Source: an archaeon
GTDB lineage: Archaea > Nanobdellota > Nanobdellia > Woesearchaeales > GW2011-AR15
Direction: 5' to 3'
NCBI GenBank assembly: GCA_018657065.1
Contig: JABHXU010000017.1
Span: 43,067-107,066 of the forward strand
DNA length: 64,000 nucleotides
Made by a program: the position numbers and the translations under genes
The notes under the pieces: generated by a model
What the model was told of the DNA's origin: nothing
What the model saw: the letters and a program-made list of their open reading frames with translations, nothing else
The model's database searches: none
In this document: positions 9,159 through 45,700 of the stretch, in pieces
How positions within the stretch are numbered: position 1 is the first letter of the stretch
Layout of the letters: every line of letters begins with the position of its first letter

Positions 9159-9307
9159 GCCCCTGTAGTGTAATGGATAGCACGTAAGATTGCGGCAAGT
9201 GGTGCGTCGATTGATACCGCACCGTGTACTATCGAACAGGTTCGACAGTACTAACTTTCAAAATTTGCAAAAATCTTGAAATCGGAGTTCAATTCTTCGC
9301 TGGGGCG
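9159..9307 (+). tRNA. Intron-containing tRNA, tentatively tRNA-Arg(GCG), with about 77-nt intron in the anticodon loop
   Basis: Hand-folded. Acceptor GCCCCTG/CTGGGGC has one T-T mismatch. D arm GTGT/AATGGATA/GCAC. Anticodon stem TAAGA...TCTTG is split by 9196-9272. T arm CGGAG-TTCAATT-CTTCG; discriminator G. The intervening segment forms two strong hairpins (GGTGCG/CGCACC and GTACTATCGAAC/GTTCGACAGTAC). Confidence 0.6.
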
Positions 9308-10466: not shown

Positions 10467-11513
10467 TTATAATGTTGCAAGTTCAACATTATTAAATTTT
10501 CTTTTATAATATTGCATATAATTTACTTTTCTTTCTATTGCATTTAATACTACTTTAGTAAAATTAAGTCCTTCAAGTTTACTAGCAGTACCTAGACCAC
10601 CAGGAGTAAAGACATTAATTTCTAAAATTTTAGTTCCAACAATATCTAAACCTACAAAAAACATTCCATCTTGAACTAATTTAGGTCTAACCATCTCAGC
10701 AATTTTTAACATTTCTGGAGTTACCGTAGCTGGAGCAATAGTTCCACCTGCGTGAATATTACTTCTTAAATCATCTGGGGAACGAATTCTTCTTGCTGCA
10801 GCATATTTACCTCTATGTTTAAGAGGAACACCATTAACTAGGAAAAGTCTAGTGTCACCTTCAGCTGCTTCTGGAACATATTCTTGAGCAATAACATATC
10901 CTGCTCTACTAACAGTGTCAATAATCTGATTAATATTAGAAATATCTGTTTTTTCAAGTAAAAAAACATTTTGTCCACCAGATCCTGAAATAGGTTTTAC
11001 AACAATTTTTTCAAATTTTTTTGCAAATGCTTTGATTTCCTCTCTATTTCTAGTTATTAAGGTTTTAGGTCTAAGTTCTTCAGGAAATTCTTGAGAATAT
11101 AATTTGTTACTTGCTTTAGATAATCCATTTGGATCATTTAAAACAATCACACCGTGTTTTGTTGCAATTCTTCCAAAATTTATACCAACATTTCTAGCCC
11201 ATGCTCTATTTGATTGTTCAGAAGCAGGATCATTCCTAAGCATCAGAACATCAAGCTGATCAATAGATATTCTTTCAATAATATGTTTTTTTGGATCTTT
11301 TAAATCTTTTAAATGTACATCAAGAGATTTGTACTTTTTACCTTTAACTTTTCTAGCGTGTGCTTTTATTAGATCATCTACATCATATGAAAGTCCACCA
11401 ACATCCATAATCCATACATCGTGGCCTGCATTAATTGCAGCTTGTGATAATCTCATTGTAGTGTATCTAGGACGTTCTGTTTCAAAATCATTTATTAAAA
11501 AACCTATTTTCAT
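10467..11513 (-). CDS. gshB: Glutathione synthetase-like ATP-grasp ligase
   Basis: Aligns by eye along the whole length with E. coli GshB: MLRNDP vs LMRKDPP; LITRNREEIKAFAKKFEKIVVKPISGSGGQNVF vs LVTRNKAQLKAFWEKHSDIILKPLDGMGGASIF; RLFLVNGVPL; NIHAGGT; FFVGLDIVGTKILEINVFTPGG vs IFVGLDIIGDRLTEINVTSP. Confidence 0.75.
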   Translation of the reverse strand: MKIGFLINDFETERPRYTTMRLSQAAINAGHDVWIMDVGGLSYDVDDLIKAHARKVKGKKYKSLDVHLKDLKDPKKHIIERISIDQLDVLMLRNDPASEQSNRAWARNVGINFGRIATKHGVIVLNDPNGLSKASNKLYSQEFPEELRPKTLITRNREEIKAFAKKFEKIVVKPISGSGGQNVFLLEKTDISNINQIIDTVSRAGYVIAQEYVPEAAEGDTRLFLVNGVPLKHRGKYAAARRIRSPDDLRSNIHAGGTIAPATVTPEMLKIAEMVRPKLVQDGMFFVGLDIVGTKILEINVFTPGGLGTASKLEGLNFTKVVLNAIERKVNYMQYYKRKFNNVELATL

Positions 11514-11517
11514 TTTT

Positions 11518-12590
11518 TCACCTATATGTTTTATTAAAGTAGTAGGATTCTTGATGTAATTTCAAAAATATTTTACTTGGGTCATTTAAACTTGGGATAT
11601 TCATTATTGTATTAATTTGTTTAATGTTTATTTTTCCATAATGTAAAAGATGCAAACAACTTGCATTTTGGATGAAATTTTTTACATCTATATAACCTTT
11701 TAGGTAAACATAGTCTTTTGTAAATGCTCCAGGTTTAGAAGTATTACATAATCCTCGTTTAGCACGTAGAGTCATAAGCCAAGAACTTTCTTTTGAAAAA
11801 TAATTTAATAACTCATTATATGTTTCTCTAAAACTAGTATTTAATGCATAATGAACAGCAAGAACACGTCCAGCATATCCTTTTAAAACTCGTTTGGATA
11901 ATCCACCAATTTTTTTTCTTTATATAAAGCAAGGCCTTCTTCAGTTGATTCATATTTAGCAAAACCAATTGAAAACATTTTATAAGGTTGCATTTCTCCA
12001 CAAACAGATCTTAAAACATGTCCATATATTTCATGAGCTATTAATCTATCAACTTGTATTTTTGTAAACATATCATTTTTTTTAATATAGACTGTTTTGT
12101 TTGTTGGGTTTACCATAGCTTTTGCTAAAATTGGTGCTTCAAGAACTGTCCATTTATTTGAAAATAAAGAAATTTCATTTAAAAACAATTTTTGAACAAC
12201 AGAACTAGGTATTGAACCTTTAGTAGTTTCACGGGTTTTGCTTGGAACTCTAGTGATATAGATTTTTGCTTTTTCAATTAATTTTTCATTAGGAAAACCA
12301 TATGCTCTCTTTGAAAAATTAGTAAATTTTTTTGTACCCAAGAATTTTCGCATTAATAATTGTGCTCTTAATTCTTTTCCTTTGGCTTTCATAAGTTGAT
12401 CAATAGGTCTATATCCATAAGAAATGCTTTTTAATAATTTAAATGAATATTTAACTGGATTATAGGTGAATTGTGGGTTGTATGTTTTTGAAGCAAAAAA
12501 TTTAGATTTTTCACTATTTAAATTAGATGGATTAAAATGTTTTAAATCAATTGTTCTTGAAATTTTTGCAAGTTTTTTATCTGCTATCAT
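11518..12590 (-). pseudogene. DUF1704 / QEGLA-motif HExxH metallopeptidase-like gene, split by a frameshift in a T8/A8 homopolymer (11910-11917)
   Basis: N-terminal ORF 11883-12590 carries IAHEIYGHVL (HExxH) and TEEGLALY (QEGLA-like), then ends. The C-terminal continuation (…KGYAGRVLAVHYALNTSFRETYNELL… then ORF 11518-11775) is in the +1 frame. One additional A in the A8 run would fuse them into about 360 aa. Confidence 0.65.
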
Positions 12591-13656: not shown

Positions 13657-16600
13657 TTGAGGAAAAAAACACTATTAATTCTTTCGATTTTTTTGATATT
13701 ATTATTACAACTAACTTATGCTCAATATTTTGGTGGAGAGTGGAATGAAGGTGATTGTAAAAGCACAAAAGATCCATTGTATCTGGAAATGCCTAACACC
13801 ATTCACGCAATGATTCCAACAACTGTTAAAGTATATATCAATGATCCAATTGTCAAAGAACATGCACAGTATGTAGAGATTTTTGCAGGAAATTCCCATG
13901 TATATTCACTTTCTGGAAATGAGTTTTCAAGAAGTTCAGGTGGTAATTTTAGAGAGACTATGAAATATAATGGAGAAGATACAATAGAATTTGGTTTTAG
14001 ACCTCAAGACAGAGTTGGATTGTCTTCATCAGTAATAGTAACTTTCTACATAGTAAAAGAATCACCTGGATTAGAATGGCCAGATACAAGTGATGAAGAA
14101 TCTCCTTTTTACCAATATGGATGTCATCATGAAAGAAATAGTATAATGTGTAATAAAGAAGATGGTTGTATGATTTGTCATCATTCTATAGGACAAGTTA
14201 GTAAAGACTTTATAATGAGCGATACTGATGAAACAGTATCAATTCCAGATAGATTGGATTTTATAGATGAAAAAACAGAAAATAATTATCAGTCTGTAGC
14301 CTCTCAATATTTATCTTATAATGAGAAAAAAAAGTATATAAGTGAACAAGGAGACGAATATGAATCAAGTGATATTTACAAAATTGAACTTACAACACAG
14401 GAACTTTGGGATACATTTGAAGTATATAAAGAAAATGATCTTGATGGATATATCGGTCCAAAAGATAATATAAAAAATACTGACGTTACTACTAATGATC
14501 TTTCAGCGAGTGGTTCTGAGCTTACTGGGAAAGCATATGAAATGGTTTATAATGGACCGCTCAATCCACAGAACGGAGCTGACTTTATAGATATTTATTA
14601 TCAATTATTTGCTGAGATGTCGCCAAAAGGAAGCGGAGTTATGATAGTTAAAGCAACTAGACAAACAGTTTTTGAAAAAGGCACAGGTTCAAAAGCAGAA
14701 CTTAATGCAGTCAGAAGCGATGTTCTAAATATGCTCTCAAGCTACAAATTATCAAAAGGTAAAGTTATTGATAATAAAGATTATGATTATTTTTCTTTTA
14801 AATGGTATGTAAAAGGAGAATCTAAAGAAGAAGAAACAACTGAAGAATATTATGTAGCTGGTCATATTAGTGATTATTATGATCACCCATTATCTTATAT
14901 GAAGATAATAGCAAAAGTAGATAATATTGAATATGAAGGATACACTGATGACGAAGGAGTTTACATGATACCATTAACAGGACTAGAACTTAAAGAAGGT
15001 GAAGAAAAAGATGTTGCTTTATTTGCAATGTTTGATTATTATAGAAACGGCAATAATTATTTTGATACTTATTTTAGAAAGCCTAATGGCCAATATAGTC
15101 AAGTAATTGCATATAAAAAAGATAAATTAGTCTATGGAGAACATTTACAAATTGATTTTAGAATGGATGGTGAAGGAAACTTTTTTACTTCATTTGCTAG
15201 TAAAGCCGATATAAAACATTATTCACTTATTTATTTTCATACAGCTGAAGCAGTAGAATTTGTGTTAAGTACATTAAAGGAAGATATGGATTATAAACTT
15301 CCAGTAACAATTTATGTAGGAAATCAACATAAAAAAACATTGTATTCACCAGGAGATTCAAGGATTCTTATATCAGCTGCTCAAACCTCTCTTTCTGATT
15401 CAAATAGGCCTGACAATCGTGAATACCATGAATTCATGCATGCGCTTATGTATGATATATACAATGCATGGCCAGCAGGAAGAATGGAACCAGGTGTTAA
15501 GAATCATGATGGTTTTTTGAATAACAATACAGCAGATTCTTATTTGGAAGGTTTTGCAGAGTTTATGTCACTAGTTATATCTGATTATAATAAAGAACCA
15601 AGTCCTAGCATTTATGCAGGTTTTGGAAGTATGGAAAAAAATTATAAACCTTGGGATGGTAGAGGGATGGATGAAGAATTTGCTGTTGCATCCTTGTTAT
15701 GGGATATTTACGATGATAGAAACGAAAACGGAGATTCAATTACATTAACTTTGGATGAAATCTGGTCTGTTTTGAAAGTTAAAAGAAAGGATTTTTATGA
15801 ATACTATAAAGCATTTAAGGCAGAATTTCCTAAACAAGCAGATGCATTTGATGAATTATTTAAAATGCATGGATTTTTTTATGATACAAGAGCAGGGAAT
15901 AGTAAATATGATCTAGGTGAACCATGGAAATATACAAATGCTCAAAAAACTCAGTATAGATTCATTGATCTTTCAGGTAATATTTCACTAACAAAAACAA
16001 TTAATTATCAGCCTGGGTTCATTATAGGAAAAGCAGCAAATTACGATCGTCCGGATAGATCATCAGCAGTTAGAATTCCAAATGCATTTTTAAAAGTGAA
16101 AGATGATGAAGTTGATTTTTATACAATTAAGGTTATACATAAAGATAGTAGTCTTGACTATGAATATTTTATTGAAAGAGCTGAAGGAAAAATCTATATT
16201 CAACCATTACCTTTGGATGACAATGTTGAAATAATTGTAACTCCTATGTCAAAGGATTATAAATCTGAAAATATTTTTAGTATTAATAGTCAAGATATGA
16301 ATGAGATTATTTCTTCTGATAAAGAATTTGATGGATTTTTTGCAGAACATGATTTTGATTTAAAATCAACAGGTAATAATGTTGATGACAAATATATTTT
16401 ATTTGATGATACAGTTCCTTCTTATGAATATGAAGGAGATTTAGGTGAAGAATATGAAATTAAAGAATCAAAAAATAAAGGATTATCTGGGATAAACTCT
16501 GAACCAGGTTTTAAGTTTTCTTTTGGCAAATTTTTTTGGTTCATTATATTTGCAGCATTTGGATACTTTTATGTTGCAAAACCAATTATTAGAAAAAAAG

Positions 16601-16848
16601 CAAATAATATTTTTAAAAAAATAATTGATTTGATAGCAAAAGGAATTAAGTGGTTCATAAAATTTGGTATTCCTTTTATTGTTAAGATAATTAAATGGAT
16701 TGTTAGAGGAATAGTAAAATTATTCAAATTGGTTTTTCATCATAGTAAAAAAGCATATCATAAAGCAAAACCGCATGTTAAATCTGCGCATAAAAACTTA
16801 AAGAAAAAAGTAACTGATATGAAAAGTACTAAAAGGAAAAAGAATTAA
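13657..16848 (+). CDS. Large secreted zinc metallopeptidase (HExxH) with C-terminal TM anchor and highly cationic amphipathic tail
   Basis: Signal peptide MRKKTLLILSIFLILLLQLTYAQ. HEFMHALMYD (HExxH) with a downstream EGFAEFMS (candidate third-ligand Glu). C-terminal FWFIIFAAFGYFYV TM, then a K/R/H-rich helix-prone tail (KKIIDLIAKGIKWFIKFGIPFIVKIIKWIVRGIVKLFKLVFHHSKK...). Confidence 0.65.
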   Translation: MRKKTLLILSIFLILLLQLTYAQYFGGEWNEGDCKSTKDPLYLEMPNTIHAMIPTTVKVYINDPIVKEHAQYVEIFAGNSHVYSLSGNEFSRSSGGNFRETMKYNGEDTIEFGFRPQDRVGLSSSVIVTFYIVKESPGLEWPDTSDEESPFYQYGCHHERNSIMCNKEDGCMICHHSIGQVSKDFIMSDTDETVSIPDRLDFIDEKTENNYQSVASQYLSYNEKKKYISEQGDEYESSDIYKIELTTQELWDTFEVYKENDLDGYIGPKDNIKNTDVTTNDLSASGSELTGKAYEMVYNGPLNPQNGADFIDIYYQLFAEMSPKGSGVMIVKATRQTVFEKGTGSKAELNAVRSDVLNMLSSYKLSKGKVIDNKDYDYFSFKWYVKGESKEEETTEEYYVAGHISDYYDHPLSYMKIIAKVDNIEYEGYTDDEGVYMIPLTGLELKEGEEKDVALFAMFDYYRNGNNYFDTYFRKPNGQYSQVIAYKKDKLVYGEHLQIDFRMDGEGNFFTSFASKADIKHYSLIYFHTAEAVEFVLSTLKEDMDYKLPVTIYVGNQHKKTLYSPGDSRILISAAQTSLSDSNRPDNREYHEFMHALMYDIYNAWPAGRMEPGVKNHDGFLNNNTADSYLEGFAEFMSLVISDYNKEPSPSIYAGFGSMEKNYKPWDGRGMDEEFAVASLLWDIYDDRNENGDSITLTLDEIWSVLKVKRKDFYEYYKAFKAEFPKQADAFDELFKMHGFFYDTRAGNSKYDLGEPWKYTNAQKTQYRFIDLSGNISLTKTINYQPGFIIGKAANYDRPDRSSAVRIPNAFLKVKDDEVDFYTIKVIHKDSSLDYEYFIERAEGKIYIQPLPLDDNVEIIVTPMSKDYKSENIFSINSQDMNEIISSDKEFDGFFAEHDFDLKSTGNNVDDKYILFDDTVPSYEYEGDLGEEYEIKESKNKGLSGINSEPGFKFSFGKFFWFIIFAAFGYFYVAKPIIRKKANNIFKKIIDLIAKGIKWFIKFGIPFIVKIIKWIVRGIVKLFKLVFHHSKKAYHKAKPHVKSAHKNLKKKVTDMKSTKRKKN

Positions 16849-18289: not shown

Positions 18290-18740
18290 AAAATACATGT
18301 TACTACTTTAAAATGCTCTTTTAACGAAACATTTAAATATAAACTGCCTATTTCTACATAATCAGGTAATACTTTGTGGGTATTATTTCAACGGGGGTAG
18401 TTAACGTTTATTAACAATTAACAACGTGATTATTCTCTATGCAAATCGTGGTGAAATTTGCATCCTAAAAAAAAGAGGTTCTTAACTAAAAAAGAGTGTG
18501 ACATAATAGATTAAAGTATAGTAACGCAACTGAAAAATCAAACAGCGTTACTAATAAGCAAAAAAATTTGCTAAATAAACTTTAGACTGATGTCGGGGTG
18601 AAACTCATATATAATTAGGGGGTGTAGAAGATTTACACATTCTTTCAACACTTGATGGATATTCAAGTAGAATTGAAATAGCAACCTATGAAAGGGGTGC
18701 TCAGTTAAAAGATAATTCAATTACTAATGAGAGAATTGTT

Positions 18741-21700
18741 ATGTTTGGCGCTGACGAAGCAACTTATTGGTCAGATGAAACAGAATTATTTTTTGAAAGA
18801 TCAGTAGTTTGGTTAACAGAATTTGTAGATACAGATGGTGACGGAACACCAGACTTCGAAGATAATTGTCCTTGTTCATATAATCCAGGTCAAGAAGATG
18901 CAGATGGAGATGGACTAGGAGATATTTGTGATAATTGTCCAGTTAATTATAATCCAAATCAAGCAGACAATGATGGAGATACATTAGGAAATGTTTGTGA
19001 TATCTGTCCAGATGACACAGGTAATGATGCAGATAGTGATGGTTTTTGTTACCCAGTTGATTGTGTCGACACAGATAATACTATTTATCCAGGTGCGGAT
19101 GAAACTGTTTGTAATGGAATAGATAATGATTGTGATATCCTTTTAGATGAAGATTACGAAGAGGTTTCTTGTGGAGAGGGTGATTGTTCTGGAATGACTT
19201 CTTGCGAATTTGGTGAAATTTTTTGTAAAAATCAAGAAATAAATCAAGCAGGAAGTGATTGTGGAACTTGTTGTCAATGTGAAAATGATAATGATCCTCA
19301 AGAAGTATATGATGGAGCTCAAGATTTAGATTGTTCAGGTAATAATTTGCCTGGAATTTCAACTTGTAATAGTGATCCAGATAATAATCCAATGACATAT
19401 GATACTGCTGTTGGTTTTATTAGTGAATGCAGTGCAATTGATGTGTGTACAGAGGGAGAATATGAATTTAATCATGAATGTGATGTAGACTCTTGTGATG
19501 CAGAATGTGAAGATGGAAATTTCGAAGATGGAGATGGATGTAGTTCATCTTGTATTTTAGAAATTTGTGGAGATAATATTTTACATGAAACATTAGGAGA
19601 AGAATGCGACGATGGTAATACAGTCGATTTAGATGGTTGTGATGCAAGTTGTGTTATTGAATACTGTGGAGACGGTATTGATAATGATGCAGACAATGAA
19701 GAATGTGATGATGGTAATGATGTCGATGACGATGCATGTTCAAATTTATGTGTAACTAATTACTGTGGGGATTCAATCACTAATAATGGTGAAGAATGTG
19801 ATGATGGTAATAACGCAGACGGAGATGGATGTTCCGCATTATGTTTAGATGAATATTGTGGAGACGGTATTGACAATGATGCAGACAATGAAGAATGTGA
19901 TGATGGTAATGACGTAGATGACGATGCATGTTCAAACTTATGTGTAACTAATTACTGTGGGGATTCAATCACTAATAATGGTGAAGAATGTGATGATGGT
20001 AATAACGCAGACGGAGATGGATGTTCCGCATTATGTTTAGATGAATATTGCGGAGATGGAATACCTCAACCAGGTGAACAATGTGATGATGGTAATAATG
20101 TTAATGGAGATGGATGTGACAGTTTATGTGTTTCAGAAGTTTGTGGGAATGGTATACCTCAATTTGGTGAAGTTTGTGATGATGGTAATTTAGATGATAC
20201 AGATGCATGTTTAAGTGATTGTACGGCACCAGTTTGTGGTGATAGTATTGTATGGTTTGGCCATGAAGAATGTGATGATGGTGCAAATGGGATTGATACT
20301 GATGAATGTACAGATTCATGTACTTTAACTTATTGTGGAGATCAAACTCTTCAAATTTGGAATGGAAATAATGAAGTTGAAGAATGTGATGATGGTGCAG
20401 ATGGAGATGATACAAATACTTGTTATGATGATTGTTCATTTACATATTGTGGAGATTCTATAGTTCAAGATCCAAATGGATACGGAGTTAGTGAAGTTTG
20501 TGATGGCAATTCAATAGTTTGTGAAAACTTTGAAGGATATGCAGGAACAAGAGAATGTCAAAGTTCATGTAGAGGATTCGAAGATTGTCACACTGATGAA
20601 TATTGTGGAGATTCAATTACAAATGGATTAGAAGAATGTGATGATGGTAATAATGTTAATAATGATGGATGTGATGCATTTTGTGTCATTGAATATTGTG
20701 GAGATTCAATTACAAACGGATTAGAAGAATGTGATGATGGAAACAATGATGATGGTGATGGATGTGACGCAAGTTGTTATGACGAAATTTGTGGAAATAA
20801 TATATTGCAATTTGGTGAACAATGTGATGATGGAAACAATGATGATGAAGATGGATGTTCTTCTCAATGTGTTATTGAGTCATGTGGAGACACAATTGTT
20901 CAACTTGGATTAGGTGAAGAATGTGATGATGGTCAAGGAGATAACACTGATTCATGTCTAGATACATGTATGGACGCTGAGTGCGGAGATACATTTGTAT
21001 GGGATGGACAAGAAGAATGTGATGACGGAAACACAATCGATTTAGACGGTTGTGATGCAAGTTGTGTTATTGAATACTGTGGAGACGGAATAATCAATAA
21101 TGTTAATGAAATCTGTGACGAAGGTATTGATAATGGAGAACCTCTTCATTGTGACGCAGAATGTGGTGGAATAACTCTTCCAGTTTGTGGAAACTCTTAT
21201 CTTGAAGAAGGAGAGGAATGTGATGATAGTAATGTAGAAAATAATGACGGTTGTAATTCCGTTTGTGTCCTAGAAATATGTGGTGATGGAATTGTTCAGG
21301 ATGGTATTGGCGAAGAATGTGAATACGATAACCAATGTAATGATCAAGATTATCATACTGCAGACTATTGTGTAGAATGTGGTTGTGAAAATCCAATTAT
21401 TTGTGAAGATGAATGTCTTCCAACTAGTGAAGATATTTGTTCAGAGGATAGTGACTCAATCTTAGAATGTAGAAATGATTTTGATTCAGATCCATGTTAC
21501 GAATATGGTCCTAAATATGATTGTACAAATAACGAAGCATGTACAGTTATAGATCTAGATGAAGCATATTGTGGATCTTGCCAAACAAATTGTGGAGGAA
21601 AATGTTATTACACTCAAACAATTTATGGTGAATGGTCATGCGGCGAAGGAGATTGTTTATACACACCAGTAATTGAGTTTATTGACATTGATAATGATTA

Positions 21701-22295
21701 CATTGATGATAGATGTGATGATTGTATTGATCTAGATAAGGATGGTATTTGTGACCATGAAGATACTTGTCCAGATGTTTATAATCCAACAAACGTAGAT
21801 ACTGATGGAGATGGTGTAGGAAATGCTTGTGACTATGATAGAGATAATGATGGGTATGATGCATCAGTAGATTGTCATGATTGGGACAAAGATATTAATC
21901 CAGGTATGAAAGAAATTAAGGGAGACGGGAAAGATAATGACTGTGATCCACTAACTTCAGACAAAGAAATCAAAATTAGAAGTCAAGATTTATTGCTTGG
22001 AACAAAAATCATGAACGAAGACACAGCAATTGATGATAGAGAATTAAGAGTAGCTGTTTATGTCAAAAACAAAGGAAGTAAAACTGCTAAAAATATTAAA
22101 CTTAAAGCAACACTTCTAGATGAATATGTTTCTGACGAAACAATTATGCCAACTCTTAAAGCAGGAAAAACTAGTAGAGTAATCTTAAATATTCCTCTTT
22201 ATGGTGGAGTAATGCCAGATGAATACTACTTAAGAACTACATTAAGTGTTGAAACAGTAAAAAAAGCAAAATATAGTCAAGTGTTATTGCACTGA
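18741..22295 (+). CDS. Giant cysteine-rich repeat protein: thrombospondin type-3-like Ca-binding repeats + about 20 Myxococcus-type cysteine-rich repeats ([11 protein letters not shown]...DGC...C) + C-terminal CARDB-like domain
   Basis: 1184 aa. [38 protein letters not shown] (TSP3-like). Reiterated YCGDxI..[15 protein letters not shown](S/D)xxC units. TSP3-like repeats again near the C-terminus, then a beta-rich tail. No N-terminal signal peptide at the annotated ATG. Confidence 0.8.
   Translation: [1184 protein letters not shown]
19665..20048. repeat. Near-perfect tandem duplication, 2 x 192 bp, inside the cysteine-rich repeat gene
   Basis: 19665-19856 and 19857-20048 differ at about 5 nt. 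Both encode [64 protein letters not shown]. Confidence 0.8.
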
Positions 22296-22355: not shown

Positions 22356-23702
22356 TTAGAATTCTAAATTATCTAAAACTTGAGTTGCTTGTTTAATAAA
22401 ATCTTCTTCTTGATCTTTTGAAATAATTGCACCAGCAGCGTTTTTATGTCCACCACCTTCACCTTCAATTTCAGTTAATATTTCTTTAACAATATCTCTT
22501 AAATCAATGTCAAATTCTCCTTTTATTCTAACAGAGACTTTGGAATTGTCTTTATCTCTAGCCATTGAGATAATAATGGTTTTGTCATCTAGTTCTTTAT
22601 CATTTGAAATTATTGAAGCTAAGGTACCTATGATAGTTGGTCTAATATTGTTTTTTGCATTAATTAAAATATATTTTTTTGTTTTAATTATTTTATCTTC
22701 ATTGTCTTTGTACCATCTTAATGAATCGCTAACTTCTTTTCTATATTGAGCAACTGTTTCTAATGCTTTTGCTTTACTATATTTATCATTTAAACAAGCA
22801 CCAATACCATATGAAGCTTTATCAAGTCTTCCACAAGCATTTAATAATGTTGATAACTCTTTTAAATCTTTAAATTGGCCTTTGTCTTTTGTTATTAATC
22901 TTTCAGTAAAAATATCTTGAGGATTTTCTAATTCCTTTCTTTTCATAATTATTCCACTTATTAGTTTTTGTTTTTCTTCATCATTTAAATCAGCAAATGA
23001 TTTCCAATTTTCTCCAAGTTTTGGTTCAATTCCAATACTCTCTAAAAACATAACTGCATCAGATTCATTTTCAATTCCAGGGAGTTCAATATCACCATAA
23101 ATCATATTTCTAATTATTGGTCGAGATTCAATACCATACCAATTTAGAGTTTTTTCTTTTTTTAATAAACCTAAAGATAAAGCAATATCTAAGATCTCAT
23201 TATGTAAAGAAGAAAATTTTGTTTGAACATCTCCAATTGCACCTAAAATTGCTAAGTGAGATAAATCTTTATTTTTTGCATTTAAAGCTGTTGCAAATAA
23301 ATATACAACACCAGCGCCACTAATATCTTTTGATCCGTCAATACCATATTTATGAGGATTAATTAAAGTAATATTTTTTGGAATTTTTAACTTTTTATCA
23401 TATTCGTGATGGTCTAAAATAATAATTCTTTTTTCTGGAAAAAATTTAATTATATTTTCTAATTGTCCAGCACCTAAGTCTGTGAATATAAAGATATCAT
23501 AAACTTCTTTTTTTAGAATTTCAAGCTCTTCTTCACTTAATTGTTTAATAATTGATAAACAAAATAACTTGTTTTCTCGTTTCAAAGCTTTTGAAATAAT
23601 AGCAGCAGAAGTAATTCCATCAGTATCTAGATGAGAAATAACCCTAATAACATAATTTAGGTTTTTAATTTCTTTAGCAACTTGTGCTAATTCAGATTTC
23701 AT
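22356..23702 (-). CDS. DHH-family phosphoesterase, archaeal RecJ/GAN-like nuclease (DHH + DHHA1)
   Basis: VISHLDTDGITSAAI, ILDHH, and C-terminal GGGHKNAAGA are the DHH/DHHA1 motifs. Confidence 0.8.
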   Translation of the reverse strand: MKSELAQVAKEIKNLNYVIRVISHLDTDGITSAAIISKALKRENKLFCLSIIKQLSEEELEILKKEVYDIFIFTDLGAGQLENIIKFFPEKRIIILDHHEYDKKLKIPKNITLINPHKYGIDGSKDISGAGVVYLFATALNAKNKDLSHLAILGAIGDVQTKFSSLHNEILDIALSLGLLKKEKTLNWYGIESRPIIRNMIYGDIELPGIENESDAVMFLESIGIEPKLGENWKSFADLNDEEKQKLISGIIMKRKELENPQDIFTERLITKDKGQFKDLKELSTLLNACGRLDKASYGIGACLNDKYSKAKALETVAQYRKEVSDSLRWYKDNEDKIIKTKKYILINAKNNIRPTIIGTLASIISNDKELDDKTIIISMARDKDNSKVSVRIKGEFDIDLRDIVKEILTEIEGEGGGHKNAAGAIISKDQEEDFIKQATQVLDNLEF

Positions 23703-39530: not shown

Positions 39531-39783
39531 TAAAATTGTTAGTGTTAGAATGCCTAAAGCTTTAGTTATTGAGCTAAAAGAAGTAGCTTCAAAAAATCAT
39601 TATTTAGATGTTAGTGAAACTATTCGTTCTCTTCTTAGAAAAAGATGGTTAGAGCAAAAAAAGCCACATAAAGCTAAATTAAATCAAATTAAGCAAAATC
39701 TTTCTGGAATTTCTGATCCTAAACAACTTAGGGCATTAAAACAAACAATTAAACTTTTGGAGGAAATAAATGAGATTCAATAA
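39511..39783 (+). CDS. Second ribbon-helix-helix (CopG-like) protein
   Basis: ...IVSVRMPKALVIELKEVASKNHYLDVSETIRSLLRKRWLE. Start is ambiguous (TTG 39502 / GTG 39511 / ATG about 39549). Overlaps the start of the next gene. Confidence 0.5.
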   Translation, partial: GVSLITDKIVSVRMPKALVIELKEVASKNHYLDVSETIRSLLRKRWLEQKKPHKAKLNQIKQNLSGISDPKQLRALKQTIKLLEEINEIQ

Positions 39784-42769
39784 ACAATTATTGTCATGGG
39801 TAATTTTGGCAATTATTGTAGCATTAGCTTTCTCATTTAGTGATACAGGAGTAAACGCTTCAGATAATACAACTAATCTTACTGTAATAAATTCATCTTT
39901 AGAAATTTGGGACACAAATTTTGTTTATGTAAATGAGTCAGTGACAATATATGCTAATTATAGTTATGAAAATGGAACTATTATTGGAATAGATATTTGT
40001 CAATTTATTGGAGAATACATGTCATTTAACATGACTTCAGGATTATATTATTACATTGAAACGTATGATACTCCAGGAAATTATAGTTATGATATTTATT
40101 GTTATAAAGAAGGATACGCTGAAAAAGAGGAGTTTGGAATTATTGAAGTAATTCAAAATACAACTCAAAATGAAACAAACATAACAATCATTGATGAAGA
40201 TAATGATGGATATAGTAGTGAAACAGATTGTGATGATAATAATGCTAATATTAATCCAGGAATGAATGAAGTATTTTATAATGGAATTGATGATGATTGT
40301 AATCCATTAACAAATGATTATGTATTTTTTAATGTAACAACTAGTAGAAGTTCTTACGCTCATCAAGAAACAGTTTCAATTCATATTAATGCCCTCAATC
40401 ATTCAGATACTTATATTACAATTAATACTCCAACAAACGTTTCATATGTTTACATTTTTGCAAATGGAAGCTATCCAGCAACTCAAGAATTTTCTCTAAC
40501 AGGCATATCAGGAATTTATTCAATTGATGCAATAAATTATTATGAAGATTATACTAATACAAAATCTGTAAATTTTACAGTATCTAATTCTATGGCAGTT
40601 AATATTGTAACAAATAAAAATACTATAGAATTAGGTGAATCAATTAATTTTAGGGCAGAAATTTCCGGAAACATTGGTGAAGCAAATCTTATTTGGAATA
40701 TGGATGATGGAAATGAAGAATATGATACTGTTTTTGATTATACATATGATAATCCAGGAACTTATAATATTGTTTTAATTGTAACAGATCAAGGAGGAAA
40801 CCAAGTAATTAAAACTAAACAAATAGTAGTTAATCCAAAATATTTCTTAGAAGTAAAAGTAGTAGATAATTCAACAGGAAATATAATTTTGAATTCAACA
40901 GTTGAATTAGATAATGATGAAAAAGAAGTAAATTTATCAGGAAAAGTTGAATATGAAGTAACAAATATTACTTATAATTTAGAAGTGTTTGCAGAAGGGT
41001 ATTATAGTTATGATGAAAATATAAAAATCAATAAATCTCTTGATTTTATAGTTAAACTAGTTAAAAATCCTAGTGATATAATTCCCTCAGTCTCTTTAAT
41101 ATCTCCAGGAAATAATTCTGATGTTTCAAATCCAGATTTTAGATTTAAGTTTACAGACAATGGCAAAGCAAAATGTACTTTATATGTAACAGAAGGTGAT
41201 GGATGGTGGCTTGACGTTAATGAATCTGATAATTTGAATCCTAATACTGAATACATGTTTAAACCTGAACTAGGGAAAGGTAATTATCATTGGAAGGTAC
41301 AATGTAGGGATGAAGATGATAATGTTGGAAGTAGTAAACAATATTATCTAAAAATAAAAGAAAGTACGACAAGTACTCAAAACATAAATAGTGAATCAGA
41401 GACAACTTACAATGTAATTCAAAATGTGTATAATGTGATTCCAGATTTTGACACTTATAGTCCAGATGAGAAGAAGATTGCAGAATATCTTAAAATGGAT
41501 GTTCTAATAAAAGATGCTCAAAGAAAATTAGAAATGGCTAATAGAGATCTTTTTAATTTACGAAACGAACCCGACACCCAATCAATAATTGACAAAAGAG
41601 ATGTAATCTATAATGACATTGATAAAATTAAGGATGATACACCTTTATCTGTTAGTGTAATAGACAAGGCAGATTTTGTAAAATATCCAACAGATGAAGA
41701 ACTAGAAAAATTATTTGAAGATTATATAGCATTAAAAGGAATAGAATTAAGCAAAAGTCAAAGAACCAGTCTTCTTGAGAAAAATAAACTTTTACAAAAA
41801 AAAGTTAGTGTTAGAACTTTGGCTTATTTAGTAGAAATTCAATATATTTCTGGAAGAAGCGAAGAAATAACATTAGTTTCTAGAATTTTAAGTACTGATG
41901 AAACTGCAACAGATATTATGTTTGTAGAATTTGTACCTAAAGATTTAATTGAAAGCGTAAATGAAATTGTGTTTATAACACCTGTAGATAATATTTTACA
42001 AGAGGATCCTGTATTTGAAATTCAACTAAATAAAGGAAAAGAATTTTTATATTATGTTAAAGAAACAATTGAACTAGATAAAATTCCTAAAATAGATATT
42101 GCGGCAATTAGTACAATAATAACACAACAAGATTCAAAATTAACAGGTTTTGTAGTATTTGATAATTTAGGTTTTTCAGAGTCAAATACTAAAATATTTA
42201 TAATTCAAATGATAGTTGTGTTTATACTACTCGGAGTATATTTATTTTTTTATTTTACTTCAGGATCTCAATTTACACTACCTAGTTTTAGTTTTAATTT
42301 TTTGAAAAAATCAAGTCCTGTAAGTCCAGTTGCAAATTATGGATCCACTAAAATTAAAGAAGTAGTTTATAAACCAGCTGTTCAAGAATCAGTTGTATCA
42401 AATATTCCATTGGATGAAGCACATAAAATTGAATACATGATTCAAGTTATTGGTAAAGCTCATGCATTACTTAATGTAGATTTAGAAAAAGCAGCATTAT
42501 ATTATCACGAGGTTAAGTTCTTATATGAATTTTTACCTAAAGGTGATCAAGATCATGTACATAATAAAGTAATTAATTTAGCAGATGAACTTAATTTAAA
42601 ACATGTTCAAAAATTAGTAGATAAAGCTGTAATTGAATTAGCTCATAATAATAAGGATAATGCTCATGAAATTTATGATCATATTGTTGAAGAATTTGAA
42701 AAATTATCAGAAAGTCACAAACAAAAAGTTTACAAAAAATGCTGTGAAATAGCACTCCACTTAAAATGA
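39770..42769 (+). CDS. 999-aa surface glycoprotein: signal peptide, sequon-saturated ectodomain with PKD-like domain, TM helix, about 180-aa cytoplasmic tail
   Basis: MRFNKQLLSWVILAIIVALAFSFS signal. PKD-like block ...IWNMDDGNEEYDTVFDYTYDNPGTYNIVLIVTDQGGNQ. TM IFIIQMIVVFILLGVYLFFYF. Confidence 0.7.
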   Translation: MRFNKQLLSWVILAIIVALAFSFSDTGVNASDNTTNLTVINSSLEIWDTNFVYVNESVTIYANYSYENGTIIGIDICQFIGEYMSFNMTSGLYYYIETYDTPGNYSYDIYCYKEGYAEKEEFGIIEVIQNTTQNETNITIIDEDNDGYSSETDCDDNNANINPGMNEVFYNGIDDDCNPLTNDYVFFNVTTSRSSYAHQETVSIHINALNHSDTYITINTPTNVSYVYIFANGSYPATQEFSLTGISGIYSIDAINYYEDYTNTKSVNFTVSNSMAVNIVTNKNTIELGESINFRAEISGNIGEANLIWNMDDGNEEYDTVFDYTYDNPGTYNIVLIVTDQGGNQVIKTKQIVVNPKYFLEVKVVDNSTGNIILNSTVELDNDEKEVNLSGKVEYEVTNITYNLEVFAEGYYSYDENIKINKSLDFIVKLVKNPSDIIPSVSLISPGNNSDVSNPDFRFKFTDNGKAKCTLYVTEGDGWWLDVNESDNLNPNTEYMFKPELGKGNYHWKVQCRDEDDNVGSSKQYYLKIKESTTSTQNINSESETTYNVIQNVYNVIPDFDTYSPDEKKIAEYLKMDVLIKDAQRKLEMANRDLFNLRNEPDTQSIIDKRDVIYNDIDKIKDDTPLSVSVIDKADFVKYPTDEELEKLFEDYIALKGIELSKSQRTSLLEKNKLLQKKVSVRTLAYLVEIQYISGRSEEITLVSRILSTDETATDIMFVEFVPKDLIESVNEIVFITPVDNILQEDPVFEIQLNKGKEFLYYVKETIELDKIPKIDIAAISTIITQQDSKLTGFVVFDNLGFSESNTKIFIIQMIVVFILLGVYLFFYFTSGSQFTLPSFSFNFLKKSSPVSPVANYGSTKIKEVVYKPAVQESVVSNIPLDEAHKIEYMIQVIGKAHALLNVDLEKAALYYHEVKFLYEFLPKGDQDHVHNKVINLADELNLKHVQKLVDKAVIELAHNNKDNAHEIYDHIVEEFEKLSESHKQKVYKKCCEIALHLK

Positions 42770-45700
42770 CAAAGAAAAAAACTAAAATTGACATAGACAC
42801 AATTTTAATGAATGTTTTAGTAGTTTTACTTATCTTAATTTCAACTATTTCATTAGTAATTATAAGAGATTATGTGGGGATGGTTGCTTCACATGGTGCA
42901 AGGGGAGGAAGAATAACTGAAATAAATGTTGTTCATCAGGCACCAGCCACAATTTGGAATGGAATATTTGGAATTGCAATTCAAGCAGCATTGGATACTC
43001 CTTGGTATGTATTTGCGAATAATGGAGAAGTATCTGAACTTAACCCTATTTATCCTTGTTTTGAAATTGATAAAGTTCATGAAATTTATTCCACAATTTT
43101 AAATGAAACAGAACTTATATGGGCAAATGTTACAGTTGGAAATACAACTATGTTGGATAACTGGGTAGGAATTTTATCAAATGATACCATGTCAGCAACA
43201 CAGACATTTAATGACACAATTTCTGTAGAGTTAGGTAATGTTACTTTTAGTAATGTTCCTGCTATTTACATGAAAGAATATAATGAACCAAATAGTACAG
43301 AGTTTCCAGTAGGAATTTTACAATACAATGGAACACCAATTATGGTTACACTAATTAACACAGATTACATAACTGGATTTAGACCTGATAAATTAGTGAA
43401 CTATGAAATGATGGTTCCAGTACCATTTAATTCAACAAATTTAAAGTATTATTTATATGTAGATCCTTATGATACTTGTCCTTATGGTTCAGGTGGATCA
43501 GCAGAAGAAATAGGAAGAGGAGAAGTATATGGATATGTAACGGATACGGATACAGGTCAATTTTTAGAAAATACTTTAGTTGCAATTGATGGAAAAATAT
43601 ATGTTACAAGTTCAGATGGATATTATAATATTTCTGAGGTGGCTGAAGGTGAACGATATATAGTTGCAACAAAGCTTGGATTTGGAAACTATGTTAGAAA
43701 TTTAACAATTGTTGAAGATGTTTCTTTAGAACATAATATTTCCATGGATATTGTATTTGATCAATCGTTTACTGGGACAGGTTCAGGAGTAGGAACTGGT
43801 GTAGACGATCCAGGAACAAAAACTAAATCAGGAGATGGTCCTGGTATAGGTCCTGGTATAGGTCCTGGTATAGGTCCATTTATTGAAAAACCAGAAAATA
43901 TTGGTGTTGATAATTGGATGTCTCTAGACCGACTTAAGAAAAGAATTAGATTAAATAATTTTTTTACTGAACATTTACTTGTGTTTAGTTTTAGATCTGA
44001 ACCTGCAGAAGTGAAAATTCAAATAACAGGTGACGCTGCAGAAATAATTGAACTTTCAGACACCTCTGCAACAATTGAACAAAATGAGTATGCAAATTTT
44101 TCAGTAAGAGGGTATGGTTTAGAAGAAGGTCAGTATAATGGGGAAATTGTAGTTAGTGGGGATTTTAATGGGACAATTCCAATTGAAATTACAGTTAGTG
44201 ATGAAGAAAGATTACCTGTAGAAGCACTTTTAATTCAATTAGATGTATTAACAAGAAGACCTCTTCCAGGAAAGAACTTTAAATTTAGTGTGAACCTTCA
44301 AAATTTACTTATTGATGAGAGATATGATGTAAGATTAGATTATTATTTAAGAGGTATTGAAAGTGAAACAGCTAATAATACATTATATATAGGAAATGAG
44401 ACTGTAAGCTTAAGAACAACAGAAACAGTTATTGAAGAATTTGTAATTCCGTCTGAATGGCCTAAAGGTGATTATTTCTTAATTATAGAAGCAAATTATT
44501 TTGATATGTATTCAAGAACTACAACAGTTTTTGAACTATTTGAGCCAATTCAAAATTACAAAGTATTTGGATTAGTTGAACTTTGGAAAGTATTAACTGT
44601 TTTAGGAGTTTTAGCTTTTATTCTTGGTTTAGTTTTGTATATTAGACGTGAAATTAATAAAAGAAAAAGATTCCATGCAAAAGTAGAATATAAATTACTT
44701 CCAAAAAAAGGACCTAGGTCATTATATGTAGGAAAAATCGCTGAAACAGAAAATGATACATATTTTGATATGGATAAATTAACAGTCCATAGTATTGTTG
44801 CAGGATCAACAGGAGGAGGTAAATCTATTTCTGCTCAAGTAATAATTGAAGAATGTTTAATGAAGGATGTAGCAGTTATTGTTATTGATCCTACAGCACA
44901 ATGGTCTGGAATGTTAAGAAAATGTCAAGATCAAAAAATGATGTCTTATTATCCTAGATTTCATTTAACAAAAAAAAGTTCTAGAGCATTTAATGGAAAT
45001 GTTAGAGCTATTATGAATCCACTTGAAAAAGTAGATTTACTTAAATTTTGGAAACCTGGAGAAATTCAAGTTATTACAACAAGTACTCTTGATCCAAAAG
45101 GCATGGATATTTTTGTTGCAAATACAGTTAGACAAGTTTTCAAATCAAATCTAAAAGAGTATAGGGGTTTACGATTTATGATGGTTTATGATGAAGTTCA
45201 CAGATTGCTACCTAAATTTGGTGGTACTGGAGAAGGATTTGTTCAAATTGAAAGGGCTTGTAGGGAATTTAGAAAGTGGGGTATAGGCGTTATGCTTATT
45301 TCACAGGTTTTAGCAGACTTCGTTGGACAAATTAAAGCAAACATTAACACTGAAGTACAAATGAAAACAAGAGATGAAAGTGATTTAGCTAGAATTAAGG
45401 ATAAATATGGAGCATCATTTATTCAAGAACTTGTTAAATCTCCAGTAGGAAGTGGCATGGTTCAAAACTCATCATGGAATCGAGGTTTACCTTATTATGT
45501 TACTTTTAGACCAATTTTACATAGTGTTGTAAGATTAAGTGATGAAGAACTTGAAAAATATAACAAATATAATTTGATTGCAGAAGACCTTGAATTTCAA
45601 TTAGATCAATTGGAAGAAACAGGTAAAGATGTGTTTGATTTAAGACTTGAATTAAAATTATCAGTTGATAAAATAAAACAAGGCGGTTTTAATATGGTTG

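What the first reader, a model, noticed from the sequence alone, without database searches (positions are those of the whole stretch)
19665..20048. Very recent 192-bp tandem duplication inside the cysteine-rich repeat gene
Two adjacent 192-bp units (19665-19856 and 19857-20048) are about 97% identical at the nucleotide level (about 5 substitutions). Both encode the same 64-aa double repeat. Other repeats in the same gene are much more diverged. A second, shorter near-duplication occurs at about 20590-20720 (EYCGDSITNGLEECDDGNN...). This indicates ongoing expansion/contraction of the repeat array. It is also a likely site for assembly collapse.
Basis: seen in the sequence. Interest (0 to 1): 0.5.

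Follow-up and report, generated by a model that had tools for sequence, protein, structure and literature searches.

The report
Unstable 192-bp repeat in archaeal gene
A gene for a large cysteine-rich repeat protein in a tiny marine DPANN archaeon carries a real head-to-tail duplication of two repeat modules, which short-read assemblies of the same population rebuild with one, two, three or more copies; this is an ordinary kind of repeat instability and a proven assembly trap.

Summary
Window 19665-19856 and 19857-20048 are tandem 192-bp copies with 188/192 identical bases. All 4 differences are synonymous and lie in the first 81 bp. Other repeat pairs in the gene have a median identity of 60% and a maximum of 81%.

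The gene (18741-22295, 1184 aa) is a DUF4215/TIGR02232 cysteine-rich acidic repeat protein of a Woesearchaeota-like archaeon.

Eighteen contigs from other assemblies have flanks almost identical to the window (7 differences in about 129 kb). They rebuild the array as 1, 2, 3 or at least 3-4 copies, with contig breaks or N-gaps inside it.
- The copy-to-copy junction cannot arise from a single-copy genome, so the duplication is real.
- Single-copy contigs occur only in MEGAHIT assemblies and are mostly explainable as collapse.
- Some variant units carry bases found nowhere in the window and recur in independent assemblies, so some heterogeneity, or a longer true array, is real.

The copies differ about 400-fold more than the flanks do, so the duplication is recent for this gene but older than the sampled population's diversity. 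The second "near-duplication" (units 11/12) is a 51-nt gene-conversion tract between old units.

This is a known kind of phenomenon and of modest interest. Two copies is a lower bound.

The parts
18741..22295 (+). Gene for a 1184-aa cysteine-rich (123 Cys, 10.4%), very acidic modular repeat protein. NCBI names the identical protein 'DUF4215 domain-containing protein [archaeon]'.
   Evidence: ORF list and translation. Pfam DUF4215 scores 138 bits in 10 stretches; TIGR02232 scores 249.5 bits in 13 stretches. Names come and composition.
19566..21371 (+). Array of 18 DUF4215 modules, each 31-38 aa with 4 Cys, except that unit 10 is an aberrant 52-aa module.
   Evidence: Parsed on the CG[DNE] motif. 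Pairwise identity matrix. Direct-repeat families.
19665..19856 (+). Copy A of the 192-bp unit (modules 2 and 3). The variable-site haplotype at columns 18/57/60/81 is T,T,C,T.
19857..20048 (+). Copy B of the 192-bp unit (modules 4 and 5). The haplotype at the same columns is C,C,A,C.
19682..19745 (+). The 64-bp interval of copy A that holds all four sites differing from copy B (19682, 19721, 19724, 19745). Site 19724 is C in the window and A, the copy-B base, in NCBI MAG contig L001.
19746..19856 (+). The 111-bp tail of copy A, identical to 19938-20048 in copy B. It is the substrate for unequal recombination or slippage and the cause of assembly ambiguity.
19845..19880 (+). Copy-to-copy junction (...GATGAATAT|TGTGGAGACGG...). 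It contains 10-mers absent from all single-copy contigs. The duplication boundaries fall in the conserved E-Y-C-G-D-G module boundary.
20597..20647 (+). Head of unit 11, with 51 of 52 bases identical to 20690-20740 (head of unit 12). Read here as a gene-conversion tract between two old adjacent units.
   Evidence: Orthology of units 11 and 12 to separate units of P0013.
20690..20740 (+). Head of unit 12, the partner of the 20597-20647 tract.
19598..19675 (+). Tail of unit 1. It shares 71/78 bases with the tail of unit 15 (21011-21088), including an exact 41-nt run (19635-19675 = 21048-21088). Unit-1-like tails also appear patched into the duplicated unit in other assemblies.
18825..19010 (+). 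N-terminal thrombospondin type-3-like calcium-binding repeats (residues 29-90).
   Evidence: PDB sequence search: COMP 3fby at E 7e-25 and thrombospondin-2 at E 8e-21. TRF period 69 at 18861-19011.
21681..21953 (+). Second thrombospondin type-3-like stretch plus a MopE-like metal-binding motif (residues 981-1071).
   Evidence: PDB hits 1ux6 (E 1.5e-5) and 2vov (E 0.0045).
21987..22202 (+). C-terminal CARDB domain (residues 1083-1154).
   Evidence: Pfam PF07705 scores 24.0 bits against a cut-off of 22.7.

Best explanation
What it is: a two-module, 64-codon segment of a DUF4215 cysteine-rich repeat gene in a Woesearchaeota-like (DPANN) archaeon has been duplicated head to tail and in frame. The breakpoints lie in the conserved module boundary, GAATAYTGYGGAGAYGG (E-Y-C-G-D-G).

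The protein (inferred): it is a string of small disulfide-knotted acidic modules, flanked by thrombospondin-type-3-like calcium-binding repeats and a CARDB domain. Adding or removing a 64-aa block should therefore only lengthen or shorten a stalk.

Mechanism (inferred from sequence patterns): the two copies keep 111-128 bp of perfect identity. That is enough for homologous unequal crossing-over, replication slippage and gene conversion. The same process has homogenised the heads of units 11/12 and the tails of units 1/15. In other members of the population it has patched unit-1-like tails into the duplicated unit.

Shown: the duplication is real and both copies are under purifying selection.

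Inferred: it predates the diversity of the sampled population.

Shown: short-read assemblies cannot resolve this array. Single-copy contigs are most likely collapses, and the window's two copies are a lower bound.

Inferred: part of the differences between contigs reflects real heterogeneity of the array, or a longer real array.
For: Duplication and its coding state:
- 188/192 identical bases, in frame, identical peptides.
- All 4 differences are synonymous. The probability of that by chance is 0.001-0.005 for kappa 1-4.

The duplication is real:
- The identical 1184-aa protein occurs on 6 contigs, including four NCBI MAG protein accessions.
- The junction contains 10-mers absent from single-copy contigs, so a de Bruijn assembler cannot create it from a single-copy genome.

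Assemblies disagree at this spot only:
- The 90% cluster holds 1120-, 1184- and 1248-aa forms, plus partial proteins broken in the repeat.
- Flanks are identical (7 differences in about 129 kb), but about 12 different array structures were seen.
- Single-copy contigs occur only under MEGAHIT-style names: 5 of 6 MEGAHIT contigs against 0 of 9 others, Fisher p = 0.002.
- Three of the single-copy contigs contain no k-mer shorter than 136-178 nt that is missing from multi-copy contigs.

Some of the variation is real:
- Variant units carry bases absent from the window and from the relative L016. These are patch 1 (G at column 159, A at column 171), patch 2 (GTA AAC) and the head haplotype CTCT.
- Patch 1 recurs in 4 independent assemblies and CTCT in 2.
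- Site 19724 takes the copy-B base in L001, and it is the only difference in 9.5 kb.

Gene conversion elsewhere in the gene:
- Units 11 and 12 each have a separate collinear orthologue in P0013.
- Units 1 and 15 share a 41-nt exact run.

Module string:
- AlphaFold model with pLDDT 71.8, pTM 0.32 and almost no regular secondary structure.
- The best structural match is a single module of PAPP-A, over 35-39 columns at 56-63% identity and rmsd 1.1-2.4 A.
Against: - No reads were available, so no copy number is verified for any genome.
- Assembler and study are confounded, so real single-copy strains cannot be excluded.
- The mosaic heads in L003 and L004 (novel 40-mer and 25-mer) could be real crossover products or small-k chimeras.
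- All variant units might coexist in one longer clonal array that each assembler threads differently. In that case there would be no population heterogeneity.
- The protein has no signal peptide or hydrophobic segment (the highest 19-residue Kyte-Doolittle mean is 0.95). The extracellular stalk role therefore rests only on family analogy.
- All 4 differences falling in the first 81 bp is only marginally non-random (p = 0.03).
Confidence: 0.65

Rival explanations
1. The array is fixed in all cells of the population, at two copies or, more likely, at several slightly different copies. Every difference among contigs is then an assembly artefact: collapse, wrong threading through a repeat tangle, or chimeric bubbles.
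For: - Copy number tracks the assembler: single copy occurs only in k141_ contigs, and MEGAHIT resolves two copies only when copy 1 carries the distinguishing patch 1 (L008).
- Contig ends overlap by exactly 132 nt inside copy B (L015/L017).
- A scaffold gap hides a 55-nt, k-mer-sized overlap (L012).
- All three HAWL17-1 scaffolds have N-gaps here.
- L011 plus L014, from one MAG, imply at least 4 distinct units.
- The flanks are clonal.
Against: - Unit 1 is followed by both TTCT and TTAT heads. All four combinations of column 60 (C or A) with a plain or patch-1 tail occur directly after unit 1. A single fixed array would need many near-identical units to explain this.
- Patch 2 and CTCT are seen in only some assemblies.
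Confidence: 0.3
2. The two-copy state is itself an artefact. The real genome has one copy, and two co-occurring strain variants were strung together.
For: - Six contigs that could be read, and up to four more that were not shown, are single copy.
- The four differences between copies look like synonymous strain SNPs.
Against: - The tail-to-head junction sequence does not exist in a single-copy genome. Its 10-mers are absent from all single-copy contigs.
- The junction is nevertheless assembled by SPAdes, MEGAHIT, JGI and NCBI-MAG pipelines.
- The phasing of the haplotypes is consistent across assemblies.
Confidence: 0.03
3. This is a selected contingency locus. Fast, reversible gain, loss and reshuffling of 64-aa blocks varies a host-attachment or surface protein among otherwise clonal cells of an episymbiotic archaeon.
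For: - About 12 array structures sit on identical flanks.
- The reciprocal-looking hybrids TCAC (single copy) and CTCT (extra copy) both switch between columns 18 and 57.
- All variants stay in frame.
- Relatives carry about 5, 15 and 18-20 modules.
- The family occurs in adhesive or extracellular proteins.
Against: - There is no evidence of function, surface location or switching rate.
- The duplicated blocks have identical peptides, so copy number changes only the length.
- The assembler confound described above applies here too.
- No dedicated recombinase or reverse transcriptase was found among the 35 ORFs scanned.
Confidence: 0.15
4. The head of copy B (the 64-bp interval with all four differences) did not diverge in place. 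It was imported by recombination with a diverged allele of another strain, so the duplication could be younger than the 2% divergence suggests.
For: - All four differences cluster in 64 bp and are synonymous, next to a 111-bp identical tail.
- The copies are about 400 times more divergent than the flanks.
Against: - No contig with a diverged allele of this gene lying between 56% and about 100% identity was found.
- The clustering is only marginal (p = 0.03).
Confidence: 0.12

Closest known systems
DUF4215 / TIGR02232 'Myxococcus cysteine-rich (acidic) repeat' proteins
   Same: The repeat motif C-G-D-G-x(4-9)-E-x-C-D-D-G-N-x(3)-D-G-C-x(3)-C is the same, and the HMM scores lie far above the cut-offs. 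Thousands of homologues exist, mostly large multi-domain proteins of Myxococcota.
   Different: The host is a DPANN archaeon with about 27% GC. The flanking modules are thrombospondin type-3 repeats, a MopE motif and CARDB. No signal peptide is detectable. The family itself has no known function.
The single DUF4215-like module of human pappalysin-1 (PAPP-A; PDB 7ufg, 8hgg, 8a7e)
   Same: This is the only solved structure that matches the model of one module. The match spans 35-39 columns at 56-63% identity and rmsd 1.1-2.4 A.
   Different: The Foldseek E-values are weak (0.015-0.05). PAPP-A has one such module inside a metalloprotease, whereas here 18 form an array. The model confidence is moderate (pLDDT 72).
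Intragenic tandem-repeat copy-number variation in cell-surface proteins, for example yeast FLO/adhesin genes, the group B Streptococcus alpha C protein, and Giardia cysteine-rich CRP170 with long tandem repeats and frequent rearrangements (PMC2188815 for Giardia; the others from general knowledge)
   Same: Long, in-frame, near-identical repeats lie inside a modular protein that is presumably on the surface. Copy number differs among close relatives. Recombination or slippage is the presumed mechanism.
   Different: Here the variation is seen only across short-read metagenome assemblies. No phenotype, localisation or switching rate is known. The host is an uncultured archaeon.
Concerted evolution / gene conversion in repeat arrays
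   Same: Short identical tracts (51 nt in units 11/12, 41 nt in units 1/15) sit in otherwise diverged units. A copy-B base is copied into copy A at 19724 in one MAG. Unit-1-like patches occur in the duplicated unit.
   Different: The tracts are inferred from sequence patterns alone. Donor-to-recipient direction is inferred from one outgroup (P0013).

Membership tests
DUF4215 / TIGR02232 cysteine-rich acidic repeat family | The whole-protein HMM score exceeds the curated cut-off, with multiple repeat matches. | tested here: met
   PF13948 scores 138.3 bits against a cut-off of 27, in 10 stretches. TIGR02232 scores 249.5 bits against 20.8, in 13 stretches.
DUF4215 / TIGR02232 cysteine-rich acidic repeat family | Modules of about 31-38 aa with four conserved cysteines and an E-x-C-D-D-G-N core. 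| tested here: met
   18 units were parsed. The Cys and DDGN columns are invariant in a 30-sequence alignment with homologues.
Genuine intragenic tandem duplication (not an assembly artefact) | Head-to-tail adjacency, in frame, with a junction sequence that a single-copy genome cannot supply, reproduced by independent assemblies. | tested here: met
   Period 192 with 0 indels. The junction 10-mers are absent from single-copy contigs. Multi-copy arrays that include the junction appear in SPAdes, MEGAHIT, JGI and NCBI MAG contigs.
Genuine intragenic tandem duplication (not an assembly artefact) | Copy number confirmed by reads that span the whole array. | not testable with these tools
   No read data were available. 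The array (at least 384 bp, with 111-128-bp identical stretches) exceeds what 150-nt reads resolve.
Contingency / phase-variable repeat locus | Repeat number differs among otherwise clonal cells. | tested here: inconclusive
   Arrays of 1, 2, 3 and at least 3-4 copies sit on identical flanks. However, single-copy forms track the assembler (p = 0.002) and are explainable as collapse.
Contingency / phase-variable repeat locus | Measured high switching rate, and a functional or expression consequence of repeat number. | not testable with these tools
   The organism is uncultured. All variants are in frame, so there is no on/off switching.
Diversity-generating retroelement target | A nearby reverse transcriptase and a template/variable repeat pair whose mismatches fall at template adenines. 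| tested here: not met
   The differences between copies are T/C, T/C, C/A and T/C, at synonymous third positions. No reverse transcriptase was found among the 35 ORFs scanned against Pfam. Ten ORFs of at least 150 aa were not scanned.
Thrombospondin type-3 calcium-binding repeats (flanking modules) | Significant sequence match to solved type-3 repeat regions. | tested here: met
   COMP 3fby at E 7e-25, thrombospondin-2 at E 8e-21 and thrombospondin-1 at E 1.5e-5.
Secreted / cell-surface protein | An N-terminal signal peptide or a membrane/cell-wall anchor. | tested here: not met
   There is no hydrophobic stretch: the highest 19-residue Kyte-Doolittle mean is 0.95. The N-terminus is conserved in relative P0016, which also lacks a signal peptide. 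No dedicated signal-peptide predictor was available.

The most novel reading that the evidence does not exclude
The locus may be an archaeal contingency locus. In a natural, otherwise clonal population of a DPANN archaeon, unequal recombination and gene conversion would continuously reshuffle and resize the module array of a giant cysteine-rich, presumably host-contact, protein. Cells that are identical elsewhere would then differ at this one spot.
Probability: 0.15. Interest if true: 0.5.

Novelty: new member of a known kind. Interest (0 to 1): 0.3.

Why it matters
For genome users, the lesson is practical. The gene length in every public MAG of this organism (1120, 1184 or 1248 aa, or broken) is unreliable at this spot, and the window's two copies are a lower bound.

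For biology, the locus gives a small, well-delimited case in which a DPANN archaeal repeat protein shows duplication, gene conversion and possible copy-number polymorphism against a clonal background. A single amplicon or long-read experiment could test this.

It does not reveal a new mechanism.

Tried and rejected
- Exact-pattern scans of metagenome contigs and genome contigs with the head of the unit found nothing.
- The search for related loci with the neighbouring DHH protein found no relatives in those two collections.
- Rfam found nothing in the 450-nt ORF-free stretch upstream of the gene.
- A self-paralogue alignment of overlapping windows (A2) was staggered and unusable. It was replaced by an alignment with homologue segments (A3).
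- A literature search for the sample and assembly identifiers only showed that JGI 3300022916 is treated as a marine metagenome. My recollection that these samples come from Saanich Inlet is unverified and was not used.
- A diversity-generating retroelement was considered and rejected, because the mismatch pattern is wrong and no reverse transcriptase was found.
- A pseudogene or 5'-truncated gene was considered because there is no signal peptide. It was set aside because relative P0016 has the same N-terminus and all differences between copies are synonymous.
Full report
**1. Observation**

Tandem Repeats Finder reports a period-192 array at 19658-20056, with 2.1 copies, 97% matches and no indels. 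Aligning 19665-19856 with 19857-20048 gives 188/192 identical bases. The four differences are at unit columns 18, 57, 60 and 81, which are window 19682, 19721, 19724 and 19745 against the same positions +192.

All four are third-codon-position changes, so the two copies encode the same 64 residues. The last 111 bp of the copies are identical.

The enclosing ORF (18741-22295, + strand, 1184 aa) contains 18 modules of 31-38 aa; unit 10 is an exception at 52 aa. Apart from the duplicated pairs (96% and 100%), module pairs have a median nucleotide identity of 60%. The best are 81% (units 11/12) and 77% (units 1/15).

The second near-duplication is also present. Window 20597-20647 and 20690-20740 share 51 of 52 bases, and then the units diverge.

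**2. The gene and its host**

- Pfam DUF4215 scores 138 bits in 10 stretches, and TIGR02232 'cysteine-rich acidic repeat' scores 249.5 bits in 13 stretches. Both identify the array.
- Residues 29-90 and 981-1039 match thrombospondin type-3 calcium-binding repeats: COMP at 7e-25, thrombospondin-2 at 8e-21, thrombospondin-1 at 1.5e-5.
- Residues 1032-1071 match MopE weakly.
- A CARDB domain closes the protein.
- The protein is 10.4% Cys and 17.6% Asp and has no hydrophobic segment.
- An AlphaFold model of units 1-6, built with a 30-sequence alignment, has pLDDT 71.8 and pTM 0.32, with almost no regular secondary structure. It looks like a string of small knots.
- Its best solved-structure match is a single module of PAPP-A, over 35-39 columns at 56-63% identity and rmsd 1.1-2.4 A. 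The E-values are weak.
- The family has no established function. It is reported in extracellular or adhesive proteins.

The neighbours are chromosomal archaeal genes: an S15 with the archaeal/eukaryotic N-domain, FtsZ, a DHH nuclease, and tRNA-Gln. GC content is about 27%. The closest named FtsZ relatives, at 79-89% identity, are Candidatus Woesearchaeota or Nanoarchaeota. NCBI labels the identical protein 'DUF4215 domain-containing protein [archaeon]'.

**3. Related sequences**

The 90%-identity cluster of this protein has 11 members:
- two 1184-aa forms;
- two 1120-aa forms, lacking exactly one 64-aa block;
- one 1248-aa form, with one extra block;
- four partial proteins that end or start inside the repeat;
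- two 496-aa gene calls that lie downstream of scaffold gaps.

I retrieved 18 contigs carrying the gene, L001-L019 without L016. Their flanks are nearly identical to the window, with 7 differences in about 129 kb compared. The array differs almost everywhere.

Head haplotypes below give the bases at columns 18/57/60/81. 'Plain' means the tail seen in the window.

| Contig(s) | Array structure |
|---|---|
| window, L002 | [TTCT][CCAC] |
| L001 | [TTAT][CCAC] |
| L003 | [TCAC] |
| L004 | [TTAC] |
| L005, L006 | [TTAT] |
| L018 | [TTCT] |
| L007 | [TTCT+patch 1][CCAC][CCAC] |
| L008 | [TTCT+patch 1][CCAC] |
| L009, L010 | [TTAT+patch 1][CCAC] |
| L011 | [TTCT][CCAC+patch 2][CTCT..., then the contig ends |
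| L014 (same MAG as L011) | starts ...?CAC plain], then unit 6. Together with L011 this gives at least 4 units |
| L015 / L017 (one MAG) | contig ends overlapping by exactly 132 nt inside copy B |
| L012, L013, L019 | 100-N scaffold gaps inside the array. In L012 the gap hides a 55-nt overlap |

L001 differs from the window by one base in 9.5 kb. That base is 19724, where copy A takes the copy-B base.

**4. What is real and what is assembly**

The duplication is real.
- The tail-to-head junction contains 10-mers that occur in no single-copy contig. A graph assembler therefore cannot create it from a single-copy genome.
- The junction is nevertheless produced by SPAdes-named, MEGAHIT-named, JGI and NCBI-MAG contigs.

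The single-copy contigs are weak evidence.
- All five that I could read, plus the E-to-G variant, carry k141_ (MEGAHIT) names. None of nine other contigs is single copy (Fisher p = 0.002). Assembler and study are confounded.
- The one MEGAHIT contig with two copies (L008) is the one whose first copy carries patch 1, and patch 1 makes the copies easier to tell apart.
- L005, L006 and L018 contain no k-mer shorter than 136, 136 and 178 nt that is missing from multi-copy contigs. They are fully explainable as collapse.
- L003 and L004 carry mosaic heads with novel 40-mers and 25-mers. These are either true crossover products or small-k chimeras.

Not everything is artefact.
- Patch 1 has a 32-nt unit-1-like stretch, followed by G at column 159 and A at column 171.
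- Patch 2 is a unit-1-like tail with GTA AAC.
- Together with the CTCT head, these contain bases absent from the window and from the related gene in L016.
- Patch 1 recurs in four independent assemblies and CTCT in two.

Either the population is heterogeneous at this locus, or the true array is longer than any contig and holds all these units. In both cases the window's two copies are a lower bound.

**5. Age and selection**

The 192-bp unit has 36-51 synonymous sites, depending on the transition bias assumed. The chance that 4 random substitutions are all synonymous is 0.001-0.005. Both copies are therefore under purifying selection, and the differences are not noise.

Synonymous divergence is about 0.12 over the unit and 0.36 over the first 81 bp. 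The flanks differ among contigs at about 5e-5 per site. The duplication is thus the youngest event in this gene, but it is much older than the common ancestor of the sampled genomes. The alternative is that the head of copy B was imported from a diverged allele.

All four differences lie in the first 81 bp (p = 0.03). That hints that the tail is kept identical by gene conversion.

**6. Wider dynamics of the array**

The closest relative outside the cluster is P0013. It has 1140 aa, is 56% identical, comes from the same marine metagenome, and is partly syntenic.
- It is collinear with the window protein from unit 9 to the C-terminus.
- Units 11, 12, 13 and 14 each have their own orthologue.
- The identical 51-nt heads of units 11 and 12 in the window are therefore a conversion tract, not a new duplication.
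- Units 2-5 have no one-to-one orthologue in P0013.
- P0013 has its own near-duplicated modules elsewhere in the array.
- Another relative, P0016, has only about five modules.

Units 1 and 15, which lie 1.4 kb apart, share 71/78 bases including a 41-nt exact run.

The array evolves by duplication, loss and conversion on several time scales.

**7. Mechanism**

- Shown: a real in-frame duplication, purifying selection on both copies, conversion-like tracts, and failure of short-read assembly at this locus.
- Inferred: the first duplication arose by misalignment at the conserved module boundary (GAATAYTGYGGAGAYGG). The resulting 111-128-bp identical stretches now support homologous unequal crossing-over, slippage and conversion, which add or remove 64-aa blocks of a modular stalk.
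- Not shown: surface location (there is no signal peptide), any function, any rate, or the true copy number.

**8. Comparison and verdict**

The gene is a clear member of the DUF4215/TIGR02232 family. The phenomenon is the familiar instability of long intragenic tandem repeats in modular, often surface-located, proteins. An old parallel is the cysteine-rich Giardia CRP170 gene, which has long tandem repeats and frequent rearrangements (PMC2188815).

It is not a target of a diversity-generating retroelement. The mismatches are not adenine-specific, and no reverse transcriptase was found among the 35 ORFs scanned.

I rate it as a new member of a known kind, with interest 0.3. Its main value is as a documented assembly trap and a cheap test case for repeat polymorphism in a DPANN archaeon.

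Noticed in passing
window 18290-18740 and the gene start at 18741: A 450-nt stretch without ORFs or Rfam hits precedes the gene. The protein has no signal peptide or hydrophobic segment. Relative P0016 starts 11 codons further upstream (MKIKANNERIVIFGAD...). The in-frame upstream codons in the window (…LKDNSITNERIV) are similar to that sequence but contain no ATG, GTG or TTG. How a protein with 123 Cys would be exported is unexplained.
   Followed up: partly
window 19598-19675 vs 21011-21088: The tails of repeat units 1 and 15, 1.4 kb apart, share 71/78 bases, including an exact 41-nt run that crosses the module boundary. This suggests long-range gene conversion inside the gene.
   Followed up: partly
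window 9159-9307 (+): Rfam reports a tRNA (41.5 bits, full model) spanning 149 nt that ARAGORN did not call. It is probably an intron-containing archaeal tRNA.
   Followed up: no
window 10467-11513 (-) and 11883-12590 (-): A glutathione-synthetase/RimK-like ATP-grasp ligase lies next to a MATCAP-family (PF08014) peptidase. This could be an amino-acid ligase and carboxypeptidase pair in a DPANN archaeon.
   Followed up: no
window 39770-42769 (+) and 42766-46866 (+): Two large ORFs overlap. One has 999 aa, with a PKD domain and a MopE-like motif. The other has 1366 aa, with a HerA/DUF87 ATPase domain, a CarboxypepD_reg domain and C-terminal TPRs. They may form another surface or secretion module.
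   Followed up: no
window 13657-16848 (+): A 1063-aa ORF just upstream of the region has no Pfam match. It has a lysine-rich 16-nt tandem repeat at its 3' end (16795-16842).
   Followed up: no
L016 1326-4748 and 6871-8154: The 56%-identical orthologue in a related archaeon from the same metagenome has its own adjacent near-duplicate modules (two units sharing CDDGADGDDTNVCYDDCT). A phage-type integrase gene lies about 2 kb downstream, and the synteny is only partial (S15 and Smr are kept, DHH is replaced by a methyltransferase).
   Followed up: partly
L009 6616-7962 (window equivalent 22356-23702; the difference is at window 23400): In NCBI MAG GCA_018664525.1 the neighbouring DHH nuclease gene is called as two ORFs (249 and 100 aa). 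The only flank difference from the window there is A to T at window 23400. This is either a possible nonsense polymorphism or a sequencing error.
   Followed up: no
L012, L013, L019 (HAWL17-1_SAMN052245xx scaffolds): All three scaffolds from this pipeline place a 100-N gap inside the 192-bp array. In L012 the sequences on the two sides of the gap overlap by 55 nt, so the gap is spurious. As a result the gene is called as a 496-aa fragment.
   Followed up: yes
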